Shown here: piece after piece, positions 2,791 to 55,675 of the stretch | Layout of the letters: each line of letters starts with the position of its first letter | How positions within the stretch are numbered: position 1 is the first letter of the stretch | NCBI GenBank assembly: GCA_046498225.1 | Contig: JAWOBF010000043.1 | Location: forward strand, 16,957-80,956 | DNA length: 64,000 nucleotides | Reading direction: 5' to 3' | Source: Candidatus Aegiribacteria sp. | GTDB taxonomy: Bacteria; Fermentibacterota; Fermentibacteria; Fermentibacterales; JCC-6 | The notes under the pieces: model-generated | What the model was told of the DNA's origin: nothing | Database searches by the model: none | Seen by the model: only the letters and a program-made list of their open reading frames with translations | Made by a program: the position numbers and the translations under genes

Positions 2791-2809
2791 GGGATCACCT
2801 CTCAGATTG

Positions 2810-4884: not shown

Positions 4885-4887
4885 TTC

Positions 4888-8348: not shown

Positions 8349-8424
8349 TGGTGGAGATGAGCGGGATCGAACCGCCGACCTCTGCCTTGCGAAGGCAGCG
8401 CTCTGCCAGCTGAGCTACATCCCC
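8349..8424 (-). tRNA. tRNA-Ala (anticodon CGC), CCA encoded
   Basis: Cloverleaf read from reverse complement: GGGGAUGUAGCUCAGCUGG...CUGCCUUCGCAAGGCAG...GGUUCGAUCCCGCUCAUCUCCACCA; G3:U70 Ala identity pair. Confidence 0.9.
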
Positions 8425-8477
8425 ACGAACCGCCCTGCGGAATAGATGAAAATACACCGGTGGGCCGGCCTGGCACA

Positions 8478-16118: not shown

Positions 16119-16160
16119 ACCTCGCAGTTTCCCGAACCGTCGAGGGAGAATGAGAACAGT

Positions 16161-16748: not shown

Positions 16749-16793
16749 ACGCCTTCGGCATACCCGGCTGCCGGACATCGCCCGCTGAGACTG

Positions 16794-38263: not shown

Positions 38264-38962
38264 TCAATCAAAAAGACCGGATTCCACACCCGCTCCACCT
38301 ACAACCAGCGTTATCTCCCCGCGGACCTTCTTTTCGGAGAAGTGCTCCGCTGCCATTTCGATGTTTCCCCGCACGTACTCCTCATGGAGCTTGGTCATCT
38401 CCCTGGCTACACAGACAGGTCTGTTGCCAAGAATTCGCCTCATTTCCTCCAGATACCTGAGGAGATGATGGGGACCAAGGTAATATACAATGGAACCGGC
38501 GTAGGTGGACATCTCTTCCAGCCTGGAGGTTCTGGCCCCGCTCTTCCGTGGAAGGAATCCCTCGAAGGCGAACCTGTCGGTGGGCAGCCCTGACGCGGCA
38601 AGAGCGCAGACCACCGCGGAGGGACCGGGCACCGCTGTCACCTGATGACCGTCTTCCAGAGCCGCCCGCACAGCGCGGTATGCGGGGTCGGATATACCGG
38701 GCATTCCGGCGTCGGAGACCAGGGCCACGGTAAGTCCGTCCGTGAGGAACCCCAGTATCTGGGGGATTCTGCCCGAGGCATTGTGGTCATGGTAACTGTA
38801 CAGCCTTCGGCGGTCTTCCACGAACTTCGCCGTCCTCCTGGTATCCTCCGCCATCACCACATGCGCCGTGGCGATGGTCTCCCGGGCACGGGGAGATATG
38901 TCGGACAGGTTTCCGATGGGCGTCCCCACCAGCACCAGCTTTCCATCTCCGCCCGGCGTCAT
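38264..38962 (-). CDS. rsmI: 16S rRNA (cytidine1402-2'-O)-methyltransferase
   Basis: LVLVGTPIGNLSDISPRARETI...VVMAEDTR tetrapyrrole-methylase fold. Confidence 0.85.
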   Translation of the reverse strand: MTPGGDGKLVLVGTPIGNLSDISPRARETIATAHVVMAEDTRRTAKFVEDRRRLYSYHDHNASGRIPQILGFLTDGLTVALVSDAGMPGISDPAYRAVRAALEDGHQVTAVPGPSAVVCALAASGLPTDRFAFEGFLPRKSGARTSRLEEMSTYAGSIVYYLGPHHLLRYLEEMRRILGNRPVCVAREMTKLHEEYVRGNIEMAAEHFSEKKVRGEITLVVGGAGVESGLFD

Positions 38963-39216
38963 TCCCCTGCGTCCTCCCGACCGCGCCGGTCAGTTCTCTC
39001 CAGGAGCCTTCTCTGAAGTTCCGCCACCCTGCCGGAAAGCTCCTCCGTTTCCCGGAGGTTCCTTCTGAACTGTACATCGAGAACGTCTCCCTCCCTGCTG
39101 CCGGGGGGAAGGTACCGGGCGGGAACCAGCCAGGACTGGCCGTCCTCCGTTATCAGGACCGCCAGATCCTCCTCTATCCTGTCAAGCGAAACCATCAATC
39201 CATTTTCAAGAGCCAT
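38959..39216 (-). CDS. small hypothetical protein (DUF3006-like)
   Basis: 85 aa ORF overlapping rsmI start by 4 nt. Confidence 0.4.
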   Translation of the reverse strand: MALENGLMVSLDRIEEDLAVLITEDGQSWLVPARYLPPGSREGDVLDVQFRRNLRETEELSGRVAELQRRLLERTDRRGREDAGE

Positions 39217-39244
39217 ATCCCTCCCTCAGGCAAATGTCCCATTT

Positions 39245-39682
39245 TCAGCCCCGGCACCGAAATGGGACATTTCCGAAGAACAGTACAGTTATTCCCAGGC
39301 CGGCGGCAAGTCCGGTTAGCATTCTCAGCAGGTTGCCGCTCTGGTAGATATTGTGATACTGCAGAAGCCCGTCGACGGCAAGGGGAAGCAGGGCGGGAAT
39401 TCCAGCCCAGAACGGAACGCGTATCGCGGGCCTGTACATCAGGACGGTTCCCGCGGCGGCTCCCAGCCAGAAGGCGGTACATCTGGCGCAGAGGGCCGAG
39501 TACCCCCACGGCAGCAGCACAGACCGGGAGGGCAGCCGGTGGCATACGGCGGAAAGCGCGGGGTCGAGGAAACCGCAGGCCTTCCCGGTGAGAGGTCCGG
39601 CCATGGAAAGGGCGAAAAGCAGGAAGGAGGGCACACCCAGCATAAGAGCCAGGACGAGCCTCCCCCCGCTGAACCGTTTCAT
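39245..39682 (-). CDS. DUF2085 family membrane protein
   Basis: CHR...C.RC.AFW Cys pattern between TM helices. Confidence 0.5.
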   Translation of the reverse strand: MKRFSGGRLVLALMLGVPSFLLFALSMAGPLTGKACGFLDPALSAVCHRLPSRSVLLPWGYSALCARCTAFWLGAAAGTVLMYRPAIRVPFWAGIPALLPLAVDGLLQYHNIYQSGNLLRMLTGLAAGLGITVLFFGNVPFRCRG

Positions 39683-39713
39683 CGGCTGCCTTCCCCGCAG
39701 ACGGCCCTGAGGT

Positions 39714-41312
39714 TCAATCCCCTATCCAGATTATTCTGGTCTGGTTGTCGGGTTCCACCATGTCAAGCATGTCGATATAGGCGGTAACAGCCTCACGCAG
39801 AGTCATCTCCGCGGGGACAGCCTGGTGTTCCAGCATTATATCGTATCCCACGTTTCCCTGGGCCAGGTATCCGGTGGTGACGAATCTGTATACGCTGTCC
39901 GGATGCCAGGGCTCTCCCCCGACAAGGATATTGTCCATTTTCTGACCGTCGGGCATGGACTGGTCCCTTGTGGCGGTGAGGCCGCCTATCTCCATGTCCC
40001 TTCTCCGGCCCTGCATGCCTGTCTCCAGGATGTCCTTCAGCTGGGAGCCGGTGAGTTCCATGACGAAAAGCTGCTCCTCGAAGGGAAGGCACTGGTAGAT
40101 GATTCGGGGAGTGACGGGACCCCTGGGCAGGGCGGCCCTTATTCCCCCCCGGTTCATAAGGGCGACGTCGGCATCCGTGCTCCAGAGCATGGCATCGGCC
40201 ACCAGCCTTCCCATGGGATGCTCGGCCCCTCCCCTGGGTATCTCGTCCAGGGCCTCACCGATGACCTGGTCCATGCCGGCTTCGGCCACCGACCTGAATT
40301 CCTCTATCATTCGGGCCACTTCCGGGTCGGGCCAGAACTGGTCATGCAGAAGACTGATATACTCCTCGCCCTCCGGCAGGTCGTAGCCGACCAGGGTCCC
40401 GCTGTCGGTATCAATGGCCAGCCTTATCCGCCCTATGCCTGTGCCGTTGGCGTAACCCTGAACTACTACGGTGTGGCTTACCGGGCTCACCCATGGCTCC
40501 GCGAACCCCACGTGGAAATGACCGGAGACGATAAGGTCGATGCCCTGGACAAGGCAGGTGAGTTCGGCGTTGTTCATGGAGAAGTCCTTGGTGTACTCCT
40601 CCCCCTCCCTCCATGCGTCGAAGACCCTCTGGAGGTAGCGGTCCGGGTCCGACGGCTGGCCCAGGTGGGAGACGAGTATGATGATGTCGGCACCCAGTTC
40701 GGTGACCTCGCTGACGTATCTCTCGGCGGTCTCCACCTCGTTCAGGAACACATAATCGCCCAGGAGCTCGGGGGTTACCAGGCCGTAGGTGTCAGGTGTG
40801 TTGAGCCCTATGAACGCTACTTTCGCGCCGTCGTACTCCCTTATCTCGTAGGGAACGACCGGGTCCGGTATCTCCCCGGTGGAAGCATTTACGAAGTTCG
40901 CGCAGACAACGGGGAACTCCGCCTGCTCGCACAGTTCCAGGGCATTGTCGGTCCCGTCGTCCAGATCATGGTTCCCCAGGGTCATCATGTCGTAACCGGC
41001 GGCGTTCATCCATTCCATCACGAACTCCCCACCCTCGTAGTTCCCGGTGGGGGTGCCCTGGTATATGTCTCCCGCGTCGATGAGAAGGACGTATTCTCCA
41101 TTCTCCCGGCATTCCCGCCTTACATCGTTCACGTAGGCGCTTATGTAGGCCCCGCCGCCTATCATGGGGGGAAAGTCCGGGTTGAGAAAACTGGCCTTCT
41201 GAGGCACTATCCCTCCGTGCATATCGTTGGTGTGAAGTATATTGAGGTATATTATCTCTCCCGACGCCCCGAAGGCCAGCACAAGCGACAGGATGGGAAG
41301 CAGTAGTCTCAC
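39714..41312 (-). CDS. secreted bifunctional metallophosphatase / 5'-nucleotidase (UshA-like)
   Basis: Signal peptide; HTNDMHGG, GDIYQGT, GNHDLD calcineurin-like motifs plus C-terminal 5'-nucleotidase domain. Confidence 0.8.
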   Translation of the reverse strand: MRLLLPILSLVLAFGASGEIIYLNILHTNDMHGGIVPQKASFLNPDFPPMIGGGAYISAYVNDVRRECRENGEYVLLIDAGDIYQGTPTGNYEGGEFVMEWMNAAGYDMMTLGNHDLDDGTDNALELCEQAEFPVVCANFVNASTGEIPDPVVPYEIREYDGAKVAFIGLNTPDTYGLVTPELLGDYVFLNEVETAERYVSEVTELGADIIILVSHLGQPSDPDRYLQRVFDAWREGEEYTKDFSMNNAELTCLVQGIDLIVSGHFHVGFAEPWVSPVSHTVVVQGYANGTGIGRIRLAIDTDSGTLVGYDLPEGEEYISLLHDQFWPDPEVARMIEEFRSVAEAGMDQVIGEALDEIPRGGAEHPMGRLVADAMLWSTDADVALMNRGGIRAALPRGPVTPRIIYQCLPFEEQLFVMELTGSQLKDILETGMQGRRRDMEIGGLTATRDQSMPDGQKMDNILVGGEPWHPDSVYRFVTTGYLAQGNVGYDIMLEHQAVPAEMTLREAVTAYIDMLDMVEPDNQTRIIWIGD

Positions 41313-41326
41313 TTTATTCCCCCCGC

Positions 41327-42559
41327 CTACAGCTGGAACGCCCGGCTGATGGAGAGCATCAGCCTGGTTTCGGTTTCCTCCACGGTGAGGCTGTCACCCG
41401 GAGTGAATGAGGGAAGCCCGGTGACCTCCGTCTGCCGCCATCTGTCAGGCGAGAAGCTGGCCCCCAGGTCCAGGTCCCACTCCTCGAACTGGAAGCCGAG
41501 ACCGGTGGTGAAGCTCATCCTGTCAAGCGAAGCGGCTATGGGAGAACGCCGGTAGCTGAAGCCGAACCTCGCGGTGGGTCCTCCCGGCAGTGAGTTCTCC
41601 ACCCCGGCGCTGATGCCCCAGGAATTGTGAAGCCCCAGGCTTGTCCCCTGGAATTCAAGTGAGCTCTCGTTGCTCCAGTGGAACTCCCCGGTGACCCTGG
41701 ACCTCAGGATATTGCCGGGCACGTAGAGGGCGCCCAGCCTCGCGGTCATCGGCATGTCAAGGTCGTAATCGTCGTCGGACAGGGTGTTCCAGTCTACAGG
41801 GTCACCGCTGTTCTCCGGCGAGACCGAGAGTTCCATGGGATACTCCAGGCCGGCGCTGACGAAAACCCTCCGGTGGGGTCTGAACAGCACCGAACCCCTG
41901 GTCACGATACCGGACATGGACTCCTCGCGTCCGGCCAGTGTCCCGATCTGGGTCGGGTCAACGTTTGTAACCTCCCAGGTCACATTCCTGCTCCCGGTCA
42001 GGTAGCCGCCCGCCAGTCCGAAGGAGAAGTTATCGGAGGGGATGAAAGCCACCGCCAGGTCGAACTCGCTCAGCTGACCCGAGACATCCAGAAGTTCCTC
42101 CCCGGTCCTGACGTAGGAGGCGTCCCTGATGACGCGGCCGTAATCGTAGTCGAAGAGGCAGGGGACCCTGAAACCCGCCGCGAAGGCCAGGGATCCCGGC
42201 ATGCCGCCGGCTCCCCGAAGAGCGGCGGCCGCCCCTCCGGGAAAGAACCCCAGCTCCTTGTTGAAGGCGATCTCAGACTCTCCTATGGAACTCTCGAACT
42301 GGTCGTAGACCCGTCTGGTGCGCTTTTCCACGAAGAAATCCATACCTGCGGACAGCTCCATCAGCAGGCCGTCATCAGATATTCCCAGAAGGGCGGGGTT
42401 CTCCAGTATGCCCAGGGCCGAGGCCTCCATGAAACCGGACGCTCCCATTCCCAGCGAAGCCGCCGACTGGGAACCCGAAGGCTCCCCCAGCCACATCACT
42501 TCCGGCAGCCCGGCCGTTACCGTCATTAGCGAAATCATTCCTGCTGCGATAATGCTCAT
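41327..42559 (-). CDS. outer-membrane beta-barrel, PorV/PorQ (FadL-like, T9SS-associated) family candidate
   Basis: Signal peptide; N-terminal AASLGMGASGFMEASALGILENPALLG resembles the GMGGAFTAVADDA..NPAGLA motif; alternating beta pattern; terminal RAFQL. Confidence 0.45.
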   Translation of the reverse strand: MSIIAAGMISLMTVTAGLPEVMWLGEPSGSQSAASLGMGASGFMEASALGILENPALLGISDDGLLMELSAGMDFFVEKRTRRVYDQFESSIGESEIAFNKELGFFPGGAAAALRGAGGMPGSLAFAAGFRVPCLFDYDYGRVIRDASYVRTGEELLDVSGQLSEFDLAVAFIPSDNFSFGLAGGYLTGSRNVTWEVTNVDPTQIGTLAGREESMSGIVTRGSVLFRPHRRVFVSAGLEYPMELSVSPENSGDPVDWNTLSDDDYDLDMPMTARLGALYVPGNILRSRVTGEFHWSNESSLEFQGTSLGLHNSWGISAGVENSLPGGPTARFGFSYRRSPIAASLDRMSFTTGLGFQFEEWDLDLGASFSPDRWRQTEVTGLPSFTPGDSLTVEETETRLMLSISRAFQL

Positions 42560-42571
42560 TGTTCCTCCACC

Positions 42572-45001
42572 CTACCAGCGGAAATCCAGCTGACAGCGGA
42601 TCCCGTATTCCGTAGCATGATCGATGAAATCCCTTACCGGGCTGCCCGGGTCTCCCTCGTAGTAGAAGCTGTCGTCCGGGTCGGGCCTGTACAGCCCGGT
42701 TCTGGGATAGAAAGTGTCTTTGCGAAGCACCCTCAGCCTTAGCTGCAGGTTGTCCGATAGGTTGTTCTTCACGGTCACGTAGAACTTCGTGCCGTCCCCG
42801 TCAAGGAAATCTATTCCGGTATCCTCGAATTCCCACTGGCTCATTCCGTCGGTGGACCACAGGGTGGACCCGCCCAGTACGGACAGGTTCCGGCTGAAGT
42901 TGTGCTCCCACCTTACGGCCACGTAGCCCCCGGTCATCAGCCTGTCGTCCCCGTAGAGAGGGTTGGGGGTCAGCTCCACCATCCCGTACCTCAGCCGCAC
43001 ATCGAAATAGTCGCTGTTCGTGGGAAGGAAGAACGTCCTGAAGGTGTACTCGGTGGTGCGTGAGGTGGTAGGCACCACGTCATGCATCTTGGTCTTCTCC
43101 TGGTACTTGTACTTCAGCCTGAACCTGACGGTGAAGTCGGGTCTGTACTCAACCTCGCCCTGCAGCCTGTGGTTGTCGAAACCGTAGGGGAGCGACCTCC
43201 ACATGTCCAGGTATACCCTGGTGAACGTAATGCTCCTGCTCACCTGGAACCGGCTCTCCAGGTAGAGGCCCTCCTCGGGTTTAGGCGTGGGCCACTGGGC
43301 CAGCTGGGACGCCAGGGGGTCGTTCAGGTAGTAGGGTTTCTCGAAGATGGTGTCGTCGTAGCGGAGCTGTTCGGCGAAGCCGCGGTTGTAGGGATTATTG
43401 AAACCCAGGTCGTAGCGGCGCCATATGCCAAGGAGGTAGAAGTAGTCATTCTGCCATCTGCCCCTGGCCAGCGCGGCCATGGCGTCGTTGTCCTGTCGGA
43501 CGACTTCGCCCTCCAGGCTGACGTTGTCGATGATGGTCTGGGCGGACAGGCCGAGGAAGGAGGCGGATTCCCCCGCCTCCAGGATATCGTACTCCGGGCA
43601 GTCCCAGTTCTGGGCATCCCCGGGAATGTCCATGACGGCCGCGTCCGGCACCAGCGAATCGCTGTAGTTCACGCTCATCGCTCCCAGTCCGATGGCGGTG
43701 CCGTAGGGAAGGAATCCTCCGAAGTCGTAAAAGCCGTATCCTCCGTAGGTGGTCTCCTTCAGGACGTCCGCGTAGGGAGTTGTCCTGGTGGAGGACATGA
43801 CCGGAATGCTGGGTGTGCCGTCAAGCGCGGTTATGGCGTCCCGGGAGGCATTGGAGTAGAAACCGTAACCGAGGAAGGGTCCGCTCTGGAATTCGAGGGC
43901 TCCTCCCAGCAGGGCGAACTGCCTCGTGGACGTAAGGTCCGGGTAGAGGCCCCAGTTACGGTATGTGGACCTGTACATCATCTCATCCGTATTGTCCACC
44001 AGCAGGCCCTGTCCCAGCGAGAGGTGGTAGTTGCCCAGGACCACCTGCCTTACCGCCCCTATGTTCTCGATGGAGGCGAACCCCTTGGCCACGTCGAACC
44101 GGTCGTTGAGGTCTCCCAGTTCCAGGTCGTTGACCAGCCCGAAACCGGACGTGGAATTCCTGCCTCGGGACAGCCTGGCGCCGCCCCGGAACCGGTCCCC
44201 GAGACCCACTCTCACCCGGTGTTCCCATCCAATGGTGTTCTGCGCCTGAAGAAGCTCCTGGTACTGGTCCTGAACCCTTCCGGCCCAGGCGATGCTGTCG
44301 GATTCGGTATAGCCGCGGCCGTCGAGAATGTCGTACTCCGCGGACCGGAGTTCTCCCAGCATGGCCGAGAGTCCCTCCTCGTCGTACAGCCTTCCGTCGC
44401 CGCCGTCCACGACTATCCTGTAACTGCCGAAGAATTCCATGGAGGTGAGGTCCAGCTGCCTGGTGGAGACGAAATCCCTCATGTTCCGGTAACCGTAGTA
44501 GGTGAGGTTGTCCACGCTCCTGAGCGAAGTGACGCTGGAGACGGGACCGAGGACCTTGAGCCTTCGCTCCACCGCCACGGCGTCAACCAGGCTCACCCTG
44601 TCCAGGCTGCGAAGCTGCCAGGACGTGGCGGAGTTGACCGGAATGGGCCTGATGAGATAGTTCTCCCACATGTCCACCGCCGCGTCCCCGGGTCCGTCCT
44701 CTGTGGCCAGCCTCTCCATGATGCTGATCACCTCGGTGGAGATGCTGCCCTCGGCAGGGGGTACGACCACGCAGTTGTTCTTCAGATAATCCAGCTCCCG
44801 CGGTCCGAAACCGGGAATTTCCATCACGTCGTAGATACTGCGCAGTCCCCCCGTCTCGAAGATGAACATGTAAAGGTCTTCCACCTGTCCTGCGTCCAGC
44901 TCCTCCAGTTCCCGCAGCTCCTCCAGGCTGGCGGTGTTGAGGTCGAATCCTCCGGGAACGGAGAGACCGATGCAGGCGGCCAGTATGAAACTAGAAATCA
45001 T
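42572..45001 (-). CDS. large outer-membrane beta-barrel protein with two N-terminal ComEA-like helix-hairpin-helix motifs
   Basis: DLNTASLEELREL...IPGFGPRELDYL and PVNSATSWQLRSLDRVSLVDAVAVERRL HhH signatures; ~650 aa of amphipathic beta strands, Y/G/F rich; terminal aromatic LDFRW. Confidence 0.55.
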   Translation of the reverse strand: MISSFILAACIGLSVPGGFDLNTASLEELRELEELDAGQVEDLYMFIFETGGLRSIYDVMEIPGFGPRELDYLKNNCVVVPPAEGSISTEVISIMERLATEDGPGDAAVDMWENYLIRPIPVNSATSWQLRSLDRVSLVDAVAVERRLKVLGPVSSVTSLRSVDNLTYYGYRNMRDFVSTRQLDLTSMEFFGSYRIVVDGGDGRLYDEEGLSAMLGELRSAEYDILDGRGYTESDSIAWAGRVQDQYQELLQAQNTIGWEHRVRVGLGDRFRGGARLSRGRNSTSGFGLVNDLELGDLNDRFDVAKGFASIENIGAVRQVVLGNYHLSLGQGLLVDNTDEMMYRSTYRNWGLYPDLTSTRQFALLGGALEFQSGPFLGYGFYSNASRDAITALDGTPSIPVMSSTRTTPYADVLKETTYGGYGFYDFGGFLPYGTAIGLGAMSVNYSDSLVPDAAVMDIPGDAQNWDCPEYDILEAGESASFLGLSAQTIIDNVSLEGEVVRQDNDAMAALARGRWQNDYFYLLGIWRRYDLGFNNPYNRGFAEQLRYDDTIFEKPYYLNDPLASQLAQWPTPKPEEGLYLESRFQVSRSITFTRVYLDMWRSLPYGFDNHRLQGEVEYRPDFTVRFRLKYKYQEKTKMHDVVPTTSRTTEYTFRTFFLPTNSDYFDVRLRYGMVELTPNPLYGDDRLMTGGYVAVRWEHNFSRNLSVLGGSTLWSTDGMSQWEFEDTGIDFLDGDGTKFYVTVKNNLSDNLQLRLRVLRKDTFYPRTGLYRPDPDDSFYYEGDPGSPVRDFIDHATEYGIRCQLDFRW

Positions 45002-45821
45002 ATGTCACCCCGAACTGGTGGGTAAGGTCCAGCTTTGGATGGCTGATAACGGCGTAATCCAGCTGAATGCCGCTTACCGTCGTCCCGAGGCCGCCGGATA
45101 CGGTCACCGGGCTGCTCTGTACCCCCGCCATCAGCGTCATCGCCCCGAGGGGAAGGGACTGGCCCGCGTGCAGCCTCGTCCCGTTGAAGTCCCGGGAGAG
45201 GGTGACGGCGGACATCATGCCACTGGAAGGTTCGTAGCGGAGCCCGGCGTCTATCCTCCTCTTCATATACTCGCCGCTCTCCCCCACCCTGGCCTGGAAG
45301 GGGTTCCTCATGGAAGCCGCCAGAAGCCATCTGCCGTACATCCTCACCTGGAACCCGGTATTCACAGCGAAGGCGGTGGCGCTTCCGTACTCGGACACCC
45401 CCTCGGCGATCTCGGCCCTGCATATTACCGGCTGCACTCCGAAGGACATGTCATCGGTGAGCATGCCGGCAAAGGTAACCGCCGCCATCTGTTCGCCGTA
45501 GAGGTCTCCTCCGAAACTGCGCAGGCTCAGCCCGGCGCTCCATTCGCCGGCCAGGGGCAGGGCTCCGTCCAGGCCGTAGGTCCCGAAATCCAGGTTGGAG
45601 AATGGAAGTCTTCCGGAGATGACGGCCGCTGTCCCCTCCATCCCGGCGATGGAAGCGGGGTTGAACAGCACCGAACCCGGGCCGGTAAGGACGACGCCGG
45701 TGCCCCCCATGGCCTGGGATGCAACTCCTATCTCCAGCTCCTCGAAGGAAGCGGCGGCCTGTCCCAGCGTGACGAACAGAACCAGAAACGCTACTGTAGT
45801 CTTGATTCGCATATGTGACAC
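44991..45821 (-). CDS. outer-membrane beta-barrel, PorP/SprF- or PorQ-like candidate
   Basis: Signal peptide LGQAAA; SQAMGGTGVVLTGPGSVLFNPASIA motif; ends YDF; immediately downstream of a CTD-bearing cargo gene. Confidence 0.45.
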   Translation of the reverse strand: MSHMRIKTTVAFLVLFVTLGQAAASFEELEIGVASQAMGGTGVVLTGPGSVLFNPASIAGMEGTAAVISGRLPFSNLDFGTYGLDGALPLAGEWSAGLSLRSFGGDLYGEQMAAVTFAGMLTDDMSFGVQPVICRAEIAEGVSEYGSATAFAVNTGFQVRMYGRWLLAASMRNPFQARVGESGEYMKRRIDAGLRYEPSSGMMSAVTLSRDFNGTRLHAGQSLPLGAMTLMAGVQSSPVTVSGGLGTTVSGIQLDYAVISHPKLDLTHQFGVTYDF

Positions 45822-45822
45822 C

Positions 45823-46842
45823 TCAATTCAGCGGAGCGGCCACCACGACGGTCTCGGTGGTGGTATAACGCTTGCCTTCGGAATCCATACCCTCCAGGAG
45901 CACGAGATAGGGACCCATGGGGAGGTAATCCCCCGAATCGTCCGTCCCGTCCCACTGGACCACGTCCCCCGCCGGTCTGGAATCGGCCAGAATCGCCACG
46001 TCCCTTCCGGCCCTGTCGAACACGGTAAGAGTGAAGCTCATATCGGACGGTCCTCCGTACTCCAGGTTCACCGTCTCTCCCAGCACCGGAGCGAAGGGAT
46101 TCCCGGTAAGGACGGTTAGATGGAATCCGCTGGAAATGGAAGGCTGATAGACCTGAAGGTCCGACTGGTACCGCGGCAGCAGCTGGTAGCCGCTGTCGTA
46201 GGGGGGCTCCGAATCGTACTGTCCCCCGATGCCTTTCATGAACAGCCTGGTGCCGGCGGTCAGGCCGGCGACACTGATACCGGTGGATCCGCTGACCCTG
46301 ACGGCTACCGCGTTCTGGCCGTTCCAGACGCTGAAATTGTAGCCTCCCCCGGCCGATTCCGGATCGCTGGCAACGGTGACCCACTGTCCCTGGGCGCTGT
46401 TGCCCAGCGCCAGAAGCTGCCCTTCAACGTCCTCGGTGACACCCTGGTTGATCCCCAGCTGCAGAGGATCGGGCATTCCCGGAGTATCGATGAAGGTGAA
46501 GTCCGAAGGGGTTGCGGGGGAGATCTCCACAAGGCCGTTGTACTGCTTGATCTCACCCGTTATCCTCCAGCGTTCTCCCGCCGCGATGGGACCGGGGCTG
46601 GCGGACTCGTAGGCGTAGACGTTGATTCCGGCGGTCTCGTCCTGAACGTAGAAGCTCAATCCCGTTTCGGAGAAGAGAGTGCCCTCGCAGGTGGCCGTTC
46701 CTTCGATGGTGAGGATCTCGCCCAGGTGGTCCGGGATGCCGTCACCGTCAAGGTCCTCCCGGGCCTCCAGAATAGTAACGGTCTGGGCTCCGGACAACGA
46801 GACGAAAAGTGTCAGGACCAGGACCGGGAAACTGTTTTTCAT
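45823..46842 (-). CDS. secreted protein with N-terminal OB-fold-like (extracellular-nuclease-type/DUF5689-like) domain and T9SS C-terminal sorting domain
   Basis: TVTILEAR...GEILTIEGTATCEG...SFYVQDETAGINVYAYE...WRITGEIKQYNGLVEI; C-terminus MSFTLTVFDRAGRDVAIL...GPYLVLLEG resembles that of the S8 protease. Confidence 0.55.
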   Translation of the reverse strand: MKNSFPVLVLTLFVSLSGAQTVTILEAREDLDGDGIPDHLGEILTIEGTATCEGTLFSETGLSFYVQDETAGINVYAYESASPGPIAAGERWRITGEIKQYNGLVEISPATPSDFTFIDTPGMPDPLQLGINQGVTEDVEGQLLALGNSAQGQWVTVASDPESAGGGYNFSVWNGQNAVAVRVSGSTGISVAGLTAGTRLFMKGIGGQYDSEPPYDSGYQLLPRYQSDLQVYQPSISSGFHLTVLTGNPFAPVLGETVNLEYGGPSDMSFTLTVFDRAGRDVAILADSRPAGDVVQWDGTDDSGDYLPMGPYLVLLEGMDSEGKRYTTTETVVVAAPLN

Positions 46843-46869
46843 CGTCTCCCCTTTCTTGATTGCTTGAAT

Positions 46870-48246
46870 TCAGTCGAGCTCGGATTCCAGCTCGGCGTCC
46901 GCGAGCCTCGCGGCCCTCTCCAGAGCCTCCTCCGCGCTCATTCTTCCGTATATCGCTATCTCGACGGCCTCGGAGAGGAACATCCTTCCATCGTACCAGA
47001 ACGTTCCCTGGGGCTCGAACTGGGCGTATTCCACCTGAAGCATCACTTCCTCCAGACCCGGATACTCCTGGAATCTCTCCCGTATCGCCGAATGGTCAAG
47101 AGAACTCTCTGTTGCCGGTATGTAACCGGTGGCGGCGCTCCATCTGGCCTGCTGTTCGGGTTCGGTGAACCATTTGATGAACTCCCAGCCCGCCCGGACC
47201 GTGGCGCTGTCGGACCTGAAAAGGATAACGTTGGTGCCCGCTATTATGACGGCTTTCTCCCTTCCGGCGGGAAGGGGGGCTATGCCCAGGGTGAAGACAT
47301 CATCACCGCTGTTCTCCATTCTTTCGACGGTATTCTCAAGGAATGACAGGGAGACCGTGGAGCCCTGGACCATACCCACCTTACCCTCGAGGAAATCATT
47401 CTGATGCGTATACCCCGACGATATCCTGGCGGAGCTGTCGGTGTATATAAGGTGGATCAGCAGCTGAAGGGCCTCTATACCCTCCGGCGAGTTGAACGCG
47501 GTGCTGGAGCTGTCGCTGCTGAGCAGCGCGCCTCCGTTCTGGAGCAGAAGGTTCTCGAACATTCCCACACTGGGATTGAAGGCGGTGCCCCACCTGTCGC
47601 AGTCGTCCATAAGGTCGCCGTCATCGTTGCCGTCATGGGTGAGGGAATCCAGGACCATCCTGTACTCCTCCCAGGTGGCCGGAGGTCGCAGCCCGAGGCT
47701 GTCCATGAGCTGGGTGTTGTAGTAGAGGGCCTGAACGCTCTTGTTGAAGGGGAAACTGTATATCCGGCCATTGTAGGTGTTGTTGCGGCGGAAAACGGTG
47801 AAGAAATCGTTCTCCCATCTCTCCGTCACCGCCGGGTCATCCAGCCGCATAAGCGAATCCAGCGGGACAAGCGCTTCCCCTCTTATCAGCTGTGATGTCC
47901 AGGTCTCGTACGCCTGGGCCACCACCGGAGTGTCCCCGGCCATGACGCTGGCCAGTATCTTCTGGCAGAGGGCCCTGTAGTTGCCCATGCTCACAGGTAT
48001 CACCCTGATACCGGGATGAGTAGCGTTGAACTCCTCTATCAGGGTATCTTCGAGATATTCGCCCAGAGGGCCGCCCATGGCATGCCAGAATATCACCTGG
48101 ACCTCATCGGCGGTGTTCGATGAACCGTCCCCGCAGGCCAGCGCCAGCGCGAGTATCAGGATGGCCGGGCAGGATCTTGTGAGCAGAATCCACCTCCCTG
48201 GATGGAGCCGGAGAATAATGGCTAGTATACTATCTTGAAAATGCAC
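46870..48246 (-). CDS. ABC transporter substrate-binding lipoprotein (family 1, sugar-type)
   Basis: Lipobox LALAC; typical SBP_bac_1 features. Confidence 0.7.
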   Translation of the reverse strand: MHFQDSILAIILRLHPGRWILLTRSCPAILILALALACGDGSSNTADEVQVIFWHAMGGPLGEYLEDTLIEEFNATHPGIRVIPVSMGNYRALCQKILASVMAGDTPVVAQAYETWTSQLIRGEALVPLDSLMRLDDPAVTERWENDFFTVFRRNNTYNGRIYSFPFNKSVQALYYNTQLMDSLGLRPPATWEEYRMVLDSLTHDGNDDGDLMDDCDRWGTAFNPSVGMFENLLLQNGGALLSSDSSSTAFNSPEGIEALQLLIHLIYTDSSARISSGYTHQNDFLEGKVGMVQGSTVSLSFLENTVERMENSGDDVFTLGIAPLPAGREKAVIIAGTNVILFRSDSATVRAGWEFIKWFTEPEQQARWSAATGYIPATESSLDHSAIRERFQEYPGLEEVMLQVEYAQFEPQGTFWYDGRMFLSEAVEIAIYGRMSAEEALERAARLADAELESELD

Positions 48247-48264
48247 CTACCAGAGACACGAAGC

Positions 48265-48528
48265 TCAGGATTCGTCGCAGCGGCCTCCGGCGGGACAGCT
48301 GTCCCCTTTCTCTCCGCAGCTTCCGCCGGCGCAGCCGCCGTCCCCGCCACGGGCGTAGTCCGTAGCGTAAAAACCGGTTCCCTTGAAGATGATGCCAGAA
48401 CCCGTACCTATCATCCTCTCCGCCTCTTCCCCGCAGTCGGGGCAGGCCCTGGGAGCAACATCGTTCATGTTATGGAACACATCAAACCTCAGGCCGCAGC
48501 CTTTACACCTGTATTCGTAAGTCGGCAT
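48265..48528 (-). CDS. FmdB-family zinc-ribbon regulatory protein
   Basis: MPTYEYRCKGCGLRFDV...CPDCG CxxC-x18-CxxC. Confidence 0.7.
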   Translation of the reverse strand: MPTYEYRCKGCGLRFDVFHNMNDVAPRACPDCGEEAERMIGTGSGIIFKGTGFYATDYARGGDGGCAGGSCGEKGDSCPAGGRCDES

Positions 48529-48733
48529 TTGGAACTGTACCTTTCAATGGTTATTCACTGGTTCTTCCTGACATACTGCAACAACCTGTGGAACCGGCGG
48601 GTTCCCGTCCGTATACAGGCAATATTCATTCCAGTCGGCACAAATCCTTAATTTACTGTTCTATATATATTTGCATGTCCACATAACGGTACCGCGCCCG
48701 CAGGCGCGTCAAAGGGACATAGGCGCCGGCCCT

Positions 48734-49777
48734 TCAATCGCGGACGGATGCGCCGGTATCGGTAATATTCAGTTCATCCTCGTGCTCGGCTATCCTGCTG
48801 ACCTGGGATGCTGTCACGCCCTCCCCGATGGCCGCCACCAGCCCCACCAGTATGACGGGAATGAACTGGGTGGTATGAAATACCAGTGCCAGCACCCTGG
48901 CGGTTTCCGCCGTGATGCCCGCCAGCCCCGGCAGTACCAGTACCAGCGCTCCGTGCACCGTGCCCGTTCCCGCCGGAGTCGGTATGAGCATTCCCAGTCC
49001 CGCCAGGACCAGGACCATTACAGGGTAGTACCACATCATGGCCAGACGCATGGCCCAGAAGACGGGTATCACCGAAAGGGTCAGTGACGTCCAGACAAGC
49101 AGGGACAGCAGACCGACCCTGAGGGTGTCCTTCCAGTCCCTCATTATCTCCAGCCCTTCGGCGAAGGACATCAGTAGTCCCTCCGTCTTCTTCCCCAGGG
49201 ACTCGAGGCCGACCCACTTCAGAGGCAGTGACAGGGCTCCGGCCGCCCTTTCCCTGAACCTTCCGAGGAGTATCAGGACAGTCAGAACGCTAAGGTAAAG
49301 CAGGCCCGCCGCCATCAGCCCCGCCCTTATGCCTCCATCCAGCCTGTCCCACAGCACCGTCAGCGCCAGAAGTGTCATGGCGGCCAGGGTGAGGCCGTCG
49401 AACAGCCTCGCCAGCACCACCGTCGCGAAAGAACCCGCCCTGGGAACCGAGGTCCTGCGTGACAGCAGCAGCGCCCTGAGTATCTCACCGACCCGCCCGG
49501 GAAGTAGCGTATTGACGAAAAAACCCGTTATCAGAGGACCCGAGGCGTCCCCGACGGAAACCTTCTCCATGGGAGAAAGCAGTTTCCTCCACCTGACGAC
49601 CCTGAAGAGATAACTGAGGACAAGCGGCGGCAGCACCAGCAGAAGGACCGGCCACTGCATATCGCGCAGGGCACCGAGCAGAGCTTCCGTATCGGTCTTC
49701 CTGTAGGTGAGGTAGAGAGCGACGCCGGCTATGACAAGTCCCGGGACCAGGTGCTTCCATAGGACTCCCTTTTTCAA
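48734..49777 (-). CDS. UPF0104/lysylphosphatidylglycerol-synthase-TM-like (flippase-like) membrane protein
   Basis: 8 TM helices, LLPGRVGEILRALLL motif of LPG_synthase_TM family. Confidence 0.65.
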   Translation of the reverse strand: MKKGVLWKHLVPGLVIAGVALYLTYRKTDTEALLGALRDMQWPVLLLVLPPLVLSYLFRVVRWRKLLSPMEKVSVGDASGPLITGFFVNTLLPGRVGEILRALLLSRRTSVPRAGSFATVVLARLFDGLTLAAMTLLALTVLWDRLDGGIRAGLMAAGLLYLSVLTVLILLGRFRERAAGALSLPLKWVGLESLGKKTEGLLMSFAEGLEIMRDWKDTLRVGLLSLLVWTSLTLSVIPVFWAMRLAMMWYYPVMVLVLAGLGMLIPTPAGTGTVHGALVLVLPGLAGITAETARVLALVFHTTQFIPVILVGLVAAIGEGVTASQVSRIAEHEDELNITDTGASVRD

Positions 49778-51753: not shown

Positions 51754-52400
51754 CCGCCTTCGGTTCCGCCGCCGGAGATGATCTCCTCCGCCGAACTCTG
51801 TGGCAGGATGATAAGCTCAGCCGAGGACCCCTTGCCGCATCTCAGGACCGCGTGGACCGCGGGACCGCCCTTCCGTCCCACCGGCTGAAGAGTCTCCGGA
51901 CCCAGGTTCCAGGTCGAACAGCCAAGCATCATGACCGGGAGCATGGACGGTCTGCCCACCAGCAGGAAGCATCCGCCGGGAACGAGCAGGTGGGCCGCCG
52001 CTCTGATGAAATTCAGCACCAGAAGTTCCGAACCGGTCCTTGATACCGACCTGGAAGGGCAGGGGCTCACCCTGCCCCGCCCCGCAGAGGTAAAGGGGGG
52101 ATTGCAGATTACAGCATCCGCGGCTTCCCCGGGAAGGGCCCGGGGTACGTCCTCCACCCTGCAGCAGACGGCATTGAGGCTTGAACTCCCGAAGGTACGC
52201 ATCATCTCCGCCAGGGGGCGGGGACGGATATCTATACCTATCCACCGGCAACCGGGATTTTTTTCTGAAGCGGCTTCCATGGCGCCGCCGGAGCCGCAGC
52301 CGAGGTCCACCACCGTTGAACCGGGAGGGACCGAGAGAAGGGAAGCAAGAAGGAGTGTATCGGTAGTTACCGGAGCTCCCGGGTCCCCTCCGCCTTCCAT
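51741..52400 (-). CDS. class I SAM-dependent methyltransferase (N6-adenine/N5-glutamine type, NPPF motif)
   Basis: VVDLGCGSGG motif I and ICNPPF motif IV. Confidence 0.6.
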   Translation of the reverse strand: MEGGGDPGAPVTTDTLLLASLLSVPPGSTVVDLGCGSGGAMEAASEKNPGCRWIGIDIRPRPLAEMMRTFGSSSLNAVCCRVEDVPRALPGEAADAVICNPPFTSAGRGRVSPCPSRSVSRTGSELLVLNFIRAAAHLLVPGGCFLLVGRPSMLPVMMLGCSTWNLGPETLQPVGRKGGPAVHAVLRCGKGSSAELIILPQSSAEEIISGGGTEGGQSV

Positions 52401-53021
52401 CTACCTGAAGGTGGCCTTGGCCACGCCCCAGGTGTAGTACTCTCCGGTGTAGTCGTCGGGTCTGTAATCGTACCATCTCCTGATCGACCAGAGACCGTAG
52501 CTGTCCTCCACCATCAGGAACATCACCCTGCCTATGGCGGGGCTGTCCCAGCCGGCGTAGTCGCTTCCGGCGGCCACTATCTGGTAATCCCTCCACAGCT
52601 CGGCGGAATCCGAAGGCGCCACCGGGTCCGGCAGCGTGGGCACCGTTTGCATCACCACGGACAGCAGGCTGTCCTCCGGCAGACCCGATCCCTCCACGGA
52701 GCTGTATATGTTCATCAGGGTGTTCTGCTCCACCTGGTAGTCCCATTCGCTGAAATCCCATGAGCCGCCGAACTCCGCTATATCCGCTCCGTCGGCGATG
52801 AAGTAGTAGGATGAGTCGCAGCAGGCCATGGTTATCGATACAGACCGTCCCTCCATGGCGCTCTCCAGGTTCACTATGACGGTTGTGGGGGAGTACGGCT
52901 GCTGCCACTGGATCTCTTCCCCGGGGTCCGGATCCTCCGGGTCCCTGGGGTCGAAGAAGGAGCAGGAAAGCAGCGTCGCGCATATGACCGCGAGCGTCAT
53001 CTCAATGTACCGGTCTCTCAT
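52401..53021 (-). CDS. lipoprotein of unknown function (paralog of 14196-14750)
   Basis: Lipobox ATLLSC; C-terminal EDSYGLWSIRRWYD motif. Confidence 0.5.
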   Translation of the reverse strand: MRDRYIEMTLAVICATLLSCSFFDPRDPEDPDPGEEIQWQQPYSPTTVIVNLESAMEGRSVSITMACCDSSYYFIADGADIAEFGGSWDFSEWDYQVEQNTLMNIYSSVEGSGLPEDSLLSVVMQTVPTLPDPVAPSDSAELWRDYQIVAAGSDYAGWDSPAIGRVMFLMVEDSYGLWSIRRWYDYRPDDYTGEYYTWGVAKATFR

Positions 53022-54860: not shown

Positions 54861-55675
54861 GACAGCTTCTCCGCCATGGAGAGGAACTTGTCCGGGGGTA
54901 TCTGCTCCGCCCTGCGGCCGGGCGCTACACCGGCGTCCTTCAGAAGGGCCAGAGCTTCATCCCTGCCCAGTGCGGCCTTCAGATTGTTCAGAATGGTCTT
55001 CCTCCTCATGGAGAAGGATACCTTCACAAGCCTTCTGTACACCGCGAAATCATCCGTGTTCAGCAGCGGCTCCTCTCTCCTTTTCAGTACAACGACCCTG
55101 GAATGCACCTCCGGGACCGGATAGAAATCCTCGGGCCCCGCGTCCAGCAGCGTCTCCACCAAGAACAGGGGCCAGAACTGAAGTGAAAGTTTACCGTAAT
55201 CCTTTCCGCCGTCAAGGGCCGCCAGTCTCGCCGCCACCTCTCTCTGCAGCATCAGGACCGCAGTGCGGACGTCCCGGAACCCATCTTCAAGCAGCCGGAA
55301 GAGTATGGGAGAGGAGATGGAATAGGGCAGGTTTCCGGCAAGGACGGCAAAAGGGAATCCGGGAAGAGAAGCGGGGTCCACCCGCAGAAAATCGGAATTG
55401 ACCACGTTCACGGCATCCCCCCGGAACCTGTCCAGAAGAAAATCGGACATCCTCGCGGATATCTCCACCAGGGTCAGCTCCGCGCATCTTTGAACCAGCC
55501 TCTCAGTCAGGGCCCCGAATCCGGGGCCCACCTCCAGGACGCTCTCCCCCCGGGGAACGGCGGCGGCGATACCGGCGGCGATTGACGGGTTGACCAGGAA
55601 GTTCTGCCCCAGGTTCCTGTCCGGAGACAGTCCCGCCTTCCTCAGGTTCCGTCTCAGCCGGGTGAGCAGCATCAT
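54857..55675 (-). CDS. rsmA: 16S rRNA (adenine1518/1519-N6)-dimethyltransferase
   Basis: LGQNFLVNP, VLEVGPGFGALT, NLPY motifs. Confidence 0.85.
   Translation of the reverse strand: MMLLTRLRRNLRKAGLSPDRNLGQNFLVNPSIAAGIAAAVPRGESVLEVGPGFGALTERLVQRCAELTLVEISARMSDFLLDRFRGDAVNVVNSDFLRVDPASLPGFPFAVLAGNLPYSISSPILFRLLEDGFRDVRTAVLMLQREVAARLAALDGGKDYGKLSLQFWPLFLVETLLDAGPEDFYPVPEVHSRVVVLKRREEPLLNTDDFAVYRRLVKVSFSMRRKTILNNLKAALGRDEALALLKDAGVAPGRRAEQIPPDKFLSMAEKLS

What the first reader, a model, noticed from the sequence alone, without database searches (positions are those of the whole stretch)
42572..45001. Outer-membrane beta-barrel fused to tandem ComEA-like HhH DNA-binding motifs
ComEA-type HhH motifs (xLNTASxxEL...IPGIG-like) are normally found in small periplasmic competence proteins. 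Here two copies (residues ~20-75 and ~120-150) precede a ~650-aa barrel ending in an aromatic residue. I do not recognise this architecture as a characterised family. It could be a DNA-uptake or eDNA-anchoring porin.
Basis: seen in the sequence. Interest (0 to 1): 0.7.

Follow-up and report, generated by a model that had tools for sequence, protein, structure and literature searches.

The report
ComEA-like domains fused to outer-membrane barrel
An uncultured Fermentibacterota bacterium encodes an uncharacterised outer-membrane barrel carrying two built-in ComEA-like DNA-binding-type domains. The gene lies in a conserved cluster with a surface DNA-binder-like protein and a 5'-nucleotidase, so it is probably a previously undescribed route for taking up environmental DNA, most likely as food.

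Summary
Window 42572-45001 (-) is a real 809-aa gene. It has a short signal peptide and a ComEA-type HHH_3 domain at residues 18-80, above Pfam's threshold. A second, divergent HHH_3 domain lies at residues 119-182; profile-profile comparison and orthologues confirm it. A confidently modelled barrel of about 24 strands follows and ends in Trp.

The new evidence is genomic context. The gene sits in a tightly packed cassette:
- a tandem-OB, DUF5689/DdbD-like protein with a T9SS-type tail;
- a PorV-like barrel;
- the HhH-barrel itself;
- a BamG/FadL-like barrel;
- a 5'-nucleotidase.

This order is kept in every Fermentibacterota locus with enough flank. It is largely kept at 25-38% identity in WOR-3, Edwardsbacteria, TA06 and Cloacimonadota. 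Related loci add Nuc-type or Endonuclease-I nucleases and a nucleoside phosphorylase.

Loop lengths place the HhH domains in the periplasm, and the inferred lumen is net basic.

Best reading (about 0.55): an outer-membrane DNA/oligonucleotide conduit with a built-in ComEA-like periplasmic receptor, used to scavenge extracellular DNA. It parallels the Bacteroidota ddb system but is mechanistically distinct. DNA binding and transport are untested.

The parts
42572..45001 (-). Whole gene: HhH-HhH-barrel outer-membrane protein, 809 aa plus stop codon
   Evidence: ORF list. 65 homologues at 30-96% identity, nearly all 786-862 aa. AF2 model pLDDT 84.6.
44951..45001 (-). Residues 1-17: short hydrophobic signal-peptide-like N-terminus (MISSFILAACIGLSVPG)
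   Evidence: Read from the sequence. Modelled as a low-confidence helix 2-12. Orthologues in other phyla have clearer signal peptides. The cleavage site was not predicted with a dedicated tool.
44762..44950 (-). Residues 18-80: HhH domain 1, ComEA-type HHH_3. It has one canonical hairpin (PGFG, residues 63-66) and a net charge of -10.
44648..44761 (-). Residues 81-118: acidic helical linker containing the invariant E101 and P104 (ATEDGPGD motif)
   Evidence: Invariant columns. pLDDT 59-65 with helices 89-99 and 106-117.
44456..44647 (-). Residues 119-182: HhH domain 2, a divergent HHH_3 duplicate. It lacks Gly-x-Gly hairpins, has a net charge of +4, and contains the invariant P119, D140 and A141.
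   Evidence: hhalign of domain 1 against domain 2: 96.4%, E 1.2e-9. The orthologous segment scores as HHH_3 in relatives. pLDDT 83-94.
42575..44434 (-). Residues 190-809: beta-barrel of about 24 strands. Turns of 2-9 residues (mostly 2-5) alternate with mostly long loops. The C-terminus is ...LDFRW.
44237..44389 (-). Residues 205-255: acidic two-helix hairpin (net -8) inserted between strands 1 and 2. It is a candidate extracellular cap or lumen plug.
   Evidence: Helices 211-227 and 233-253. Charge.
43088..43129 (-). Residues 625-638: strand 17, carrying a conserved basic ladder (R626, R628, K630, K632, K636) on the inferred lumen face
   Evidence: Each position is K/R in at least 92% of 49 members. 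The face was assigned by hydrophobic alternation only.
45823..46842 (-). Neighbour gene: 339-aa secreted tandem-OB (DUF5689/DdbD-like) protein with a FlgD_ig (T9SS-type) C-terminal domain. Putative surface DNA receptor.
44991..45821 (-). Neighbour gene: 276-aa FadL/PorV-family barrel with an invariant NPA motif
   Evidence: NCBIfam PorV_fam E 9.4e-8, below its cutoff. Profile against PorV 6h3i, E 0.009. hhalign to the 410-aa neighbour, 96.6%.
41327..42559 (-). Neighbour gene: 410-aa FadL/BamG-like barrel
   Evidence: NCBIfam BamG E 2.8e-9, below its cutoff. Profile against BamG 9n2d_B, E 5.4e-9, and against TodX, E 1e-4.
39714..41312 (-). Neighbour gene: 532-aa UshA/CpdB-type 5'-nucleotidase (metallophosphatase) with a signal peptide
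   Evidence: Pfam Metallophos plus 5_nucleotid_C, E 2.6e-31. NCBIfam UshA E 8.9e-51.
46870..48246 (-). Upstream gene: UgpB-like ABC solute-binding protein, 27 nt from the cassette. Whether it belongs to the system is uncertain.
   Evidence: SBP_bac_8 E 3e-39. UgpB E 5e-32. It is adjacent in Fermentibacterota and lies 3 kb upstream in the Edwardsbacteria and TA06 loci.

Best explanation
The 809-aa protein is proposed to be the core outer-membrane channel of a five-gene module that captures and scavenges extracellular DNA. The proposed sequence of events is as follows.

1. A tandem-OB, DUF5689/DdbD-like protein is exported and held at the cell surface through its T9SS-type C-terminal domain, probably by the adjacent PorV-like 14-strand barrel. 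It binds extracellular DNA.
2. DNA or oligonucleotides pass through the barrel of about 24 strands, whose inferred lumen carries conserved Lys/Arg ladders.
3. On the periplasmic side, the two fused ComEA-like HhH domains bind the incoming polyanion and prevent back-sliding. This would act as a built-in version of the ComEA Brownian ratchet, so no TonB coupling or pilus is needed.
4. Periplasmic enzymes convert the material to nucleosides and phosphate for import. These are the co-transcribed 5'-nucleotidase and, in other lineages, a Nuc/PLD nuclease or Endonuclease I.
5. The second FadL/BamG-like barrel is a lateral adaptor, as BamG is for BamA and PorV is for SprA.

What is shown: the domain architecture, the barrel fold, the family's distribution and the cassette conservation.

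What is inferred: the periplasmic location of the HhH domains, the lumen charge, the physical complex, DNA binding, transport, and the nutritional purpose.
For: Architecture:
- HHH_3 is above threshold and the family profile matches ComEA.
- The second HhH domain is confirmed.
- The 24-strand barrel is modelled at pLDDT 84.6 and hits only outer-membrane barrels.

Topology:
- Turns of 2-9 residues (mostly 2-5) alternate with mostly long loops.
- With an even strand count, this places the N-terminal domains in the periplasm.

Lumen:
- The inferred lumen face is net +3 to +17 in all 49 members, while the loops average -35.
- 23 lumen positions are at least 80% K/R.

Context:
- Gene gaps in the window run from -11 to +27 nt.
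- In Fermentibacterota loci with enough flank, the PorV-like gene is present in 56/56, the OB gene in 52/52, the BamG-like gene in 55/55 and the 5'-nucleotidase in 46/46.
- In WOR-3, Edwardsbacteria, TA06 and Cloacimonadota loci at under 45% identity the counts are 14/16, 9/15, 12/14 and 9/11.

The OB partner:
- It is DUF5689-like and structurally matches HIN and RPA OB folds, including dsDNA-bound p204 and entry 4jbm.
- DUF5689 is the DdbD / RA0C_RS04920 family. [quoted passage not shown]

Related loci add DNA-catabolic genes:
- a PLDc_2 Nuc-like nuclease (L070 and L076);
- LTD + Endonuclease_1 + T9SS tail, together with a pyrimidine-nucleoside phosphorylase (L081);
- 5'-nucleotidase and LTD proteins (L079 and L082).

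Precedent for 14-strand FadL-type adaptors on a larger barrel: BamG-BamA (PMC12611786).
Against: - No experiment exists for any family member.
- HhH domain 1 is strongly acidic in Fermentibacterota (-5 to -12). The window protein keeps only one canonical GhG hairpin, and domain 2 has none (and the sequence).
- HHH_3-like folds also occur in proteins that do not bind DNA, such as PsbU and GspK; these appear as weak hits.
- The window cassette contains no recognisable nuclease.
- Whether the pore is open or plugged is unknown, because model coordinates could not be inspected. The acidic L1 helical hairpin or the long loops could occlude it.
- The lumen and lipid faces were assigned from sequence alternation only.
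- The physical association of the five proteins is inferred from synteny alone.
Confidence: 0.55

Rival explanations
1. The cassette is a natural-transformation machine rather than a feeding system. The HhH-barrel imports long dsDNA into the periplasm, where it is handed to ComEC for genetic uptake. This would be a pilus-independent analogue of PilQ+ComEA and of the Riemerella RA0C_RS04915/04920 system.
For: - In Riemerella, a DUF5689 protein, an outer-membrane barrel and a separate multi-HhH protein are all required for transformation (PMC8459023).
- The ddb feeding locus and that transformation system are homologous, so the two functions are close in evolution.
- A 24-strand barrel is in the size class of usher pores.
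Against: - The invariant partner is a 5'-nucleotidase. Related loci add nucleases and a nucleoside phosphorylase, which destroy DNA rather than preserve it.
- No comEC, dprA or pilQ was found among the window ORFs scanned. The rest of the genome could not be searched.
Confidence: 0.12
2. The barrel is a scaffold rather than a conduit. It anchors a surface DNA-binding and degrading assembly (the OB protein and secreted nucleases) through the FadL/PorV-type adaptors. The HhH domains mediate protein-protein contacts in the periplasm, for example with the 5'-nucleotidase. Nucleosides or nucleotides enter through other porins.
For: - HHH_3-like domains serve non-DNA roles in PsbU and GspK (weak hits).
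- Domain 1 is acidic and the hairpins are degenerate.
- BamG and PorV are adaptors that hold surface proteins on larger barrels.
- The long acidic loops could fill the lumen.
Against: - A barrel of about 620 residues with conserved lumen-facing Lys/Arg ladders is costly for a mere anchor.
- Fusion to the domain type that ComEA uses, and strict linkage to a periplasmic nucleotide-processing enzyme, fit a transport step.
Confidence: 0.15
3. The function is unrelated to nucleic acids. The protein could be a general or substrate-specific porin or a secretion or assembly component, such as an export pore for T9SS-tail proteins in these phyla. Its N-terminal HhH-fold domains would be structural, and the link to the 5'-nucleotidase would reflect organophosphate scavenging in general.
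For: - No close structural relative exists to constrain function.
- PorV-like and BamG-like neighbours belong to secretion and assembly systems in Bacteroidota.
- A UgpB-like organophosphate/sugar binding protein is adjacent.
Against: - Three independent nucleic-acid signals are seen: HhH, the DUF5689/HIN-like OB fold, and nucleases plus LTD domains. They recur with the barrel across distant lineages.
- The barrel lacks POTRA, secretin, usher and plug domains.
Confidence: 0.13

Closest known systems
ComEA (periplasmic DNA receptor of natural competence; e.g. PDB 8dfk, 8dss, 2duy)
   Different: ComEA is a small soluble or inner-membrane-anchored protein. Here two copies are covalently fused to a 620-residue outer-membrane barrel. 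The protein scores 19.4 bits against the 152-bit TIGR01259 cutoff. Domain 1 is acidic and three of the four hairpins are degenerate.
DdbC-DdbD of the Bacteroides ddbABCDEF DNA-utilisation locus, and RA0C_RS04915/04920 of Riemerella transformation (PMC12478041, PMC8459023)
   Same: The locus logic is the same: a surface DUF5689 tandem-OB DNA binder encoded next to an outer-membrane barrel, together with nucleic-acid-degrading enzymes. The OB partner is homologous. Riemerella also needs a separate multi-HhH protein, and here that element is fused to the barrel.
   Different: DdbC is a TonB-dependent, plugged transporter with a CarboxypepD_reg domain. The window barrel has no Plug, TonB_dep_Rec or CarboxypepD_reg hit, has about 24 strands, and shows only generic similarity to TonB-dependent barrels (Z no higher than 12.4). 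The surface binder carries a T9SS-type tail rather than a lipid anchor. Two FadL-type barrels and a 5'-nucleotidase are the fixed partners.
PilQ secretin with type IV pilus and ComEA (canonical Gram-negative DNA uptake)
   Same: The proposed job is the same: moving DNA across the outer membrane to a periplasmic HhH receptor.
   Different: The window protein has no secretin domain, no pilus genes lie in the cassette, and it is a monomeric-type barrel rather than a multimeric secretin.
SprA-PorV (T9SS translocon) and BamA-BamG (Bacteroidota BAM): a large barrel with a docked 14-strand FadL-family adaptor
   Same: Both flanking genes are FadL/PorV/BamG-family barrels with the NPA motif. The OB partner has the T9SS-type C-terminal domain that PorV binds.
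   Different: The central barrel is unrelated to SprA or BamA: it has no POTRA domains and about 24 strands. The neighbours score far below the curated PorV and BamG cutoffs. Complex formation is only inferred.
Bacillus subtilis YhcR (OB folds + nuclease + 5'-nucleotidase on one cell-wall-anchored polypeptide)
   Same: The same functional parts, a nucleic-acid-binding OB fold and a UshA-type 5'-nucleotidase, are combined. JGI names the OB protein after YhcR.
   Different: Here the parts are separate genes arranged around outer-membrane barrels, and the window cassette has no SNase domain.
OmpM-type porins (a periplasmic SLH domain fused to a barrel) and OprP (a phosphate porin with an arginine ladder)
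   Different: The periplasmic domain is different (HhH rather than SLH), the barrel is much larger, the protein is not known to form trimers, and the similarities are generic.

Membership tests
ComEA family (TIGR01259 comE / PF12836 HHH_3) | HHH_3 (tandem helix-hairpin-helix) domain above the Pfam gathering score | tested here: met
   31.8 bits against 27 at residues 18-74. 46 of 49 family members hit it.
ComEA family (TIGR01259 comE / PF12836 HHH_3) | Whole protein reaches the curated ComEA subfamily score and has the small, non-barrel ComEA architecture | tested here: not met
   TIGR01259 scores 19.4 bits against a cutoff of 152.35. The protein is 809 aa with a 620-residue barrel.
ComEA family (TIGR01259 comE / PF12836 HHH_3) | Sequence-independent dsDNA binding | not testable with these tools
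   Indirect evidence only. Domain 1 has net charge -10, domain 2 has +4, and one canonical GhG hairpin remains.
Outer-membrane beta-barrel protein (general class) | Closed antiparallel barrel with an even strand number, alternating hydrophobic and polar faces, short periplasmic turns alternating with long external loops, and a C-terminal aromatic residue | tested here: met
   24 strands in an AF2 model with pLDDT 84.6. Alternation and loop pattern. All top fold hits are outer-membrane barrels. The protein ends in ...FRW.
TonB-dependent transporter (including DdbC / SusC-like) | N-terminal plug domain, TonB box and a 22-strand TonB_dep_Rec barrel | tested here: not met
Secretin (PilQ/GspD) | Secretin C-terminal domain and N-domains | tested here: not met
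   No Pfam or NCBIfam hit.
Chaperone-usher pore (PapC/FimD, 24 strands) | Usher Pfam domains with a plug inserted in the barrel | tested here: not met
ddb-type DNA-utilisation locus (PMC12478041) | DUF5689 (DdbD-like) surface DNA-binding protein encoded beside the outer-membrane transporter | tested here: met
ddb-type DNA-utilisation locus (PMC12478041) | DdbC-type TonB-dependent transporter as the anchor gene | tested here: not met
   The transporter is a different barrel family.
ddb-type DNA-utilisation locus (PMC12478041) | Secreted or periplasmic nucleases encoded in the locus | tested here: inconclusive
   None is recognisable in the window cassette; only a 5'-nucleotidase is present. Nucleases are present in related loci: PLDc_2 in L070 and L076 and Endonuclease_1 in L081.
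FadL/PorV/BamG family (for the two flanking barrels) | 14-strand barrel with an N-terminal hatch bearing the NPA motif, and a score above the curated family cutoff | tested here: inconclusive
   NPA is invariant in both alignments. Hits to PorV_fam (32 bits against 90) and BamG (36.5 against 250) fall below their cutoffs. Profile hits: BamG 9n2d E 5e-9, TodX E 1e-4, PorV E 0.009. The two neighbours are related to each other at 96.6%. Their structures were not modelled.

The most novel reading that the evidence does not exclude
The cassette encodes a previously unrecognised outer-membrane DNA translocon that needs neither a pilus nor TonB. A barrel of about 24 strands, with a basic lumen, has its own covalently attached ComEA-like ratchet in the periplasm. 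Two FadL/PorV-type adaptor barrels flank it and hold a T9SS-delivered HIN-like OB-fold DNA receptor above the pore. If so, it would be a third solution to DNA passage across the Gram-negative outer membrane, after the secretin/type IV pilus route and the TonB-dependent DdbCD route. It would be widespread in uncultured FCB-group phyla: Fermentibacterota, WOR-3, Edwardsbacteria, TA06 and Cloacimonadota.
Probability: 0.3. Interest if true: 0.85.

Novelty: new variant of a known kind. Interest (0 to 1): 0.66.

Why it matters
How DNA crosses the outer membrane is understood mainly for the secretin/type IV pilus/ComEA route. A TonB-dependent route (DdbCD) was described in Bacteroidota only in 2021-2025.

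This family fuses the ComEA-type module directly to an unrelated large barrel. It keeps that fusion next to a DdbD-like DNA binder and nucleotide-processing enzymes across at least five candidate phyla. The fusion is 'Rosetta-stone' evidence that an HhH receptor and an outer-membrane pore work together. It also defines a compact, testable four- or five-protein system that could be expressed heterologously.

Ecologically, it would give abundant but uncultured fermenters of anaerobic digesters, sediments and saline lakes a dedicated way to feed on extracellular DNA, which is a major pool of phosphorus, nitrogen and carbon. Practically, it flags an unmodelled barrel family of about 620 residues that deserves a family definition.

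Tried and rejected
- The AlphaFold-database fold search (afdb50) was unavailable, so no comparison with predicted structures was made.
- Model coordinates are not exposed. Pore radius, plug occupancy and the true lumen-facing residues could not be measured. Face assignment therefore rests on hydrophobic alternation.
- The sigma-70 promoter and terminator scan of 38800-49000 gave no more sites than shuffles, so it says nothing about operon boundaries.
- Pfam at E<=1 does not see the second HhH domain in the window protein. It was rescued only by profile-profile comparison and orthologues.
- I considered and rejected membership in the TonB-dependent transporters, secretins, ushers, BamA/TamA, LptD-like and SLH-porin classes. 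The protein has none of their defining domains, and fold similarity is only generic.
- I considered 'eDNA-anchoring porin with surface-exposed HhH'. The even strand count and the pattern of short turns and long loops disfavour it. It is not excluded, because the N-terminal segment could in principle thread through the pore.
- I looked for comEC, dprA and pilQ among 36 of the larger window ORFs and found none. The rest of the genome is not available.
- Literature searches for the architecture, for Fermentibacteria DNA use, and for follow-ups on DUF5689/DdbCD found only PMC8459023 and PMC12478041.
Full report
**1. The observation**

The minus-strand ORF 42572..45001 encodes 809 aa. Its closest relatives (53-96% identity, nearly all 786-862 aa) come from Candidatus Fermentibacteria/Aegiribacteria MAGs. 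More distant ones (30-40% identity) come from Edwardsbacteria and similar groups. The window is therefore from a Fermentibacterota genome.

It is nonetheless a genuine, divergent duplicate spanning residues 119-182:
- hhalign of the two family sub-alignments gives 96.4% probability and E 1.2e-9.
- Several relatives show two HHH_3 stretches, with the second the stronger.
- P0105 126-187 aligns to window 119-180.

AlphaFold2 with a 49-sequence alignment gives pLDDT 84.6 and pTM 0.80. The model shows a helical N-terminal region and about 24 long strands between residues 190 and 808. The protein ends ...LDFRW.

**2. The barrel**

No Pfam or NCBIfam model covers residues 190-809 in any of 49 members.

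Turns of 2-9 residues (mostly 2-5) follow the even-numbered strands. Loops of 4-57 residues, mostly long, follow the odd-numbered ones. With 24 strands this is the classical outer-membrane topology and puts the N-terminal HhH tandem in the periplasm. This is an inference, because the coordinates could not be inspected.

I assigned strand faces by family-averaged hydrophobic alternation. On that assignment the inferred lumen face is net positive in all 49 members (+3 to +17, mean +11.9). It has 23 positions that are at least 80% Lys/Arg, including ladders on strand 17 (R626, R628, K630, K632, K636) and strand 23. The loops average -35, and the whole window protein is -41.

An acidic two-helix hairpin (residues 205-255, net -8) sits in the first external loop. 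It could be a cap or a plug.

**3. Caveats on DNA binding**

In Fermentibacterota, HhH domain 1 is strongly acidic (-5 to -12) and domain 2 is mildly basic (-1 to +4). In other phyla domain 1 is near neutral and domain 2 reaches up to +8.

The window protein keeps one canonical Gly-x-Gly hairpin (PGFG, residues 63-66). Domain 2 is highly conserved (P119, D140 and A141 invariant) but has no Gly hairpins.

HHH_3-like folds also occur in PsbU and GspK, which do not bind DNA; these appear as weak hits. The fold is established, but the ligand is not.

**4. Genomic context (the main new evidence)**

Six co-oriented genes are separated by -11 to +27 nt:
- a UgpB-like solute-binding protein (46870-48246);
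- a 339-aa OB protein with a FlgD_ig C-terminal domain (45823-46842);
- a 276-aa PorV-like barrel (44991-45821);
- the HhH-barrel;
- a 410-aa BamG/FadL-like barrel (41327-42559);
- a UshA-type 5'-nucleotidase (39714-41312).

The rest of the window is housekeeping: dnaX, fatty-acid synthesis, ETF, clpX and tig.

I fetched 78 loci from GTDB species representatives and checked the four non-SBP neighbours. They are on the same strand and in the same order as follows:

| Neighbour | Fermentibacterota loci with enough flank | Loci at under 45% identity (WOR-3, Edwardsbacteria, TA06, Cloacimonadota and unnamed MAGs) |
|---|---|---|
| PorV-like | 56/56 | 14/16 |
| OB | 52/52 | 9/15 |
| BamG-like | 55/55 | 12/14 |
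| 5'-nucleotidase | 46/46 | 9/11 |

In those other phyla the OB gene is much larger (785-1165 aa). In two of the four scanned it scores as genuine DUF5689 (43-48 bits against a gathering score of 28.6). All four carry FlgD_ig or Por_Secre_tail hits, most of them below Pfam's threshold.

Related loci add DNA-catabolic genes:
- Cloacimonadota-type loci insert a 188-aa PLDc_2 (Nuc-like) protein.
- L079 keeps the barrel, a FadL-like barrel and a 5'-nucleotidase.
- L081 adds a 1518-aa LTD + Endonuclease_1 + T9SS-tail protein and a pyrimidine-nucleoside phosphorylase.
- L082 adds a 5'-nucleotidase and LTD proteins.
- L080 adds a second multi-HhH protein.

**5. The partners**

Residues 31-237 of the window OB protein align at 32% identity (E 3e-22) to the Pfam-positive DUF5689/OB region of P0331.

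DUF5689 is the family of DdbD and RA0C_RS04920. DdbD is the predicted surface DNA-binding partner of the TonB-dependent transporter DdbC in the B. thetaiotaomicron ddbABCDEF DNA-utilisation locus. RA0C_RS04920 is required for natural transformation in Riemerella, which also needs a separate multi-HhH protein (PMC12478041, PMC8459023).

The two flanking barrels are distant paralogues of each other (hhalign 96.6%). Both have an invariant NPA motif. They match BamG (9n2d, E 5e-9), TodX and PorV (E 0.009) below curated cutoffs. BamG is a 14-strand FadL-family protein that docks laterally on BamA and anchors a surface lipoprotein (PMC12611786). PorV plays a comparable role for T9SS cargo tails.

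**6. Most likely mechanism**

1. A T9SS-type-tailed tandem-OB protein on the surface captures DNA. It is probably held by the PorV-like adaptor.
2. The 24-strand barrel, with its basic lumen, conducts DNA or oligonucleotides.
3. The fused periplasmic HhH tandem binds what emerges and biases movement inward. ComEA does this in trans in competent bacteria (established knowledge of ComEA).
4. The periplasmic 5'-nucleotidase, plus nucleases encoded in or outside the locus, yields nucleosides and phosphate.

Steps shown: the architecture, the fold class, homology of the parts and conserved synteny. Steps inferred: topology, complex formation, ligand, transport and physiological role. I put this at about 0.55.

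Rivals:
- Transformation rather than feeding (0.12). The two are not mutually exclusive.
- A scaffold without transport (0.15).
- A function unrelated to nucleic acids (0.13).

**7. Comparison and novelty**

The system works like a DNA-utilisation locus and shares the DUF5689 receptor with ddb. It fails the defining ddb feature of a TonB-dependent DdbC transporter. The protein fails whole-protein ComEA, secretin, usher and TonB-dependent-transporter membership tests.

Databases call it only 'helix-hairpin-helix domain-containing'. The held literature does not describe it.

In a 1.84-billion-protein representative library, 145 clusters match below 1e-30. Roughly ninety of the 150 listed hits align over the barrel, while the many weaker hits are HhH-only. 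At least 183 GTDB species representatives encode a relative.

I rate it a new variant of a known kind: an outer-membrane DNA acquisition system built on an uncharacterised barrel family with a fused ComEA-like module. Interest is 0.66.

Noticed in passing
window 46870-48246 (-): An orphan UgpB-like (CUT1) ABC solute-binding protein lies 27 nt upstream of the cassette, with no permease genes beside it in the window. The same SBP type lies upstream of the cassette in Edwardsbacteria and TA06 loci (L056, L061, L072), there with permeases and a MalK-like ATPase nearby. It might import a product of the system, but its substrate is unknown.
   Followed up: partly
window 55672-57165 (-): A single 497-aa ORF combines a complete TatD-type DNase domain (residues 53-301, E 1.5e-68) with a radical SAM domain (residues 321-486). 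This is either an unusual fusion or two genes read as one ORF.
   Followed up: no
window 42572-45001 (-) and family alignment A1: Fermentibacterota versions of the protein are extremely acidic (net -32 to -54), mostly in the loops. Orthologues in other phyla are near neutral (-5 to +3). This holds even for Fermentibacter daniensis from digesters, so it is not simply a halophile signature.
   Followed up: partly
window 12306-14165 (-): A 619-aa subtilase (Peptidase_S8) has a weak T9SS C-terminal sorting-domain hit. This is consistent with T9SS-type surface or secreted proteins in this organism.
   Followed up: no
window 1519-2889 (+), 4417-5352 (+), 7511-8476 (-), 10942-12009 (+), 14925-16778 (-), 51817-52983 (-), 53034-54860 (-): Seven sizeable ORFs (311-617 aa) have no Pfam hit at the E-value limit used (0.01 for the last two, 0.001 for the other five). 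Whether they are real genes was not checked.
   Followed up: no
window 38963-39713: A gap of about 750 nt lies between the 5'-nucleotidase gene and the next gene (a TP_methylase family protein, 38264-38962). It holds no ORF of at least 200 aa, and smaller ORFs or RNAs were not examined. A terminator-like hairpin on the opposite strand at 39042-39058 is no more than chance would give.
   Followed up: no
L056 13192-14538 (+); L070 11875-12441 (+); L081 108-4664 (+): Related cassettes carry extra secreted enzymes absent from the window. L056 has a 448-aa protein with a PHP-like 'HAHTSYSDG' N-terminus and a FlgD_ig tail. L070 has a 188-aa PLDc_2 Nuc-like protein. L081 has a 1518-aa LTD + Endonuclease_1 + T9SS-tail protein. 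The accessory nuclease appears to be swapped between lineages.
   Followed up: partly
L082 8001-11756 (P0095, 1251 aa); L080 6139-7929: Architectural variants of the family exist. One has a long TPR region in front of the HhH-barrel. In another locus, a separate 596-aa multi-HhH protein is encoded immediately upstream of the HhH-barrel.
   Followed up: no
window 20102-21076 (-): A 324-aa ORF has a weak PHP-domain hit (E 7e-5, below the gathering score) and overlaps a 354-aa plus-strand ORF. Its coding status is uncertain.
   Followed up: no
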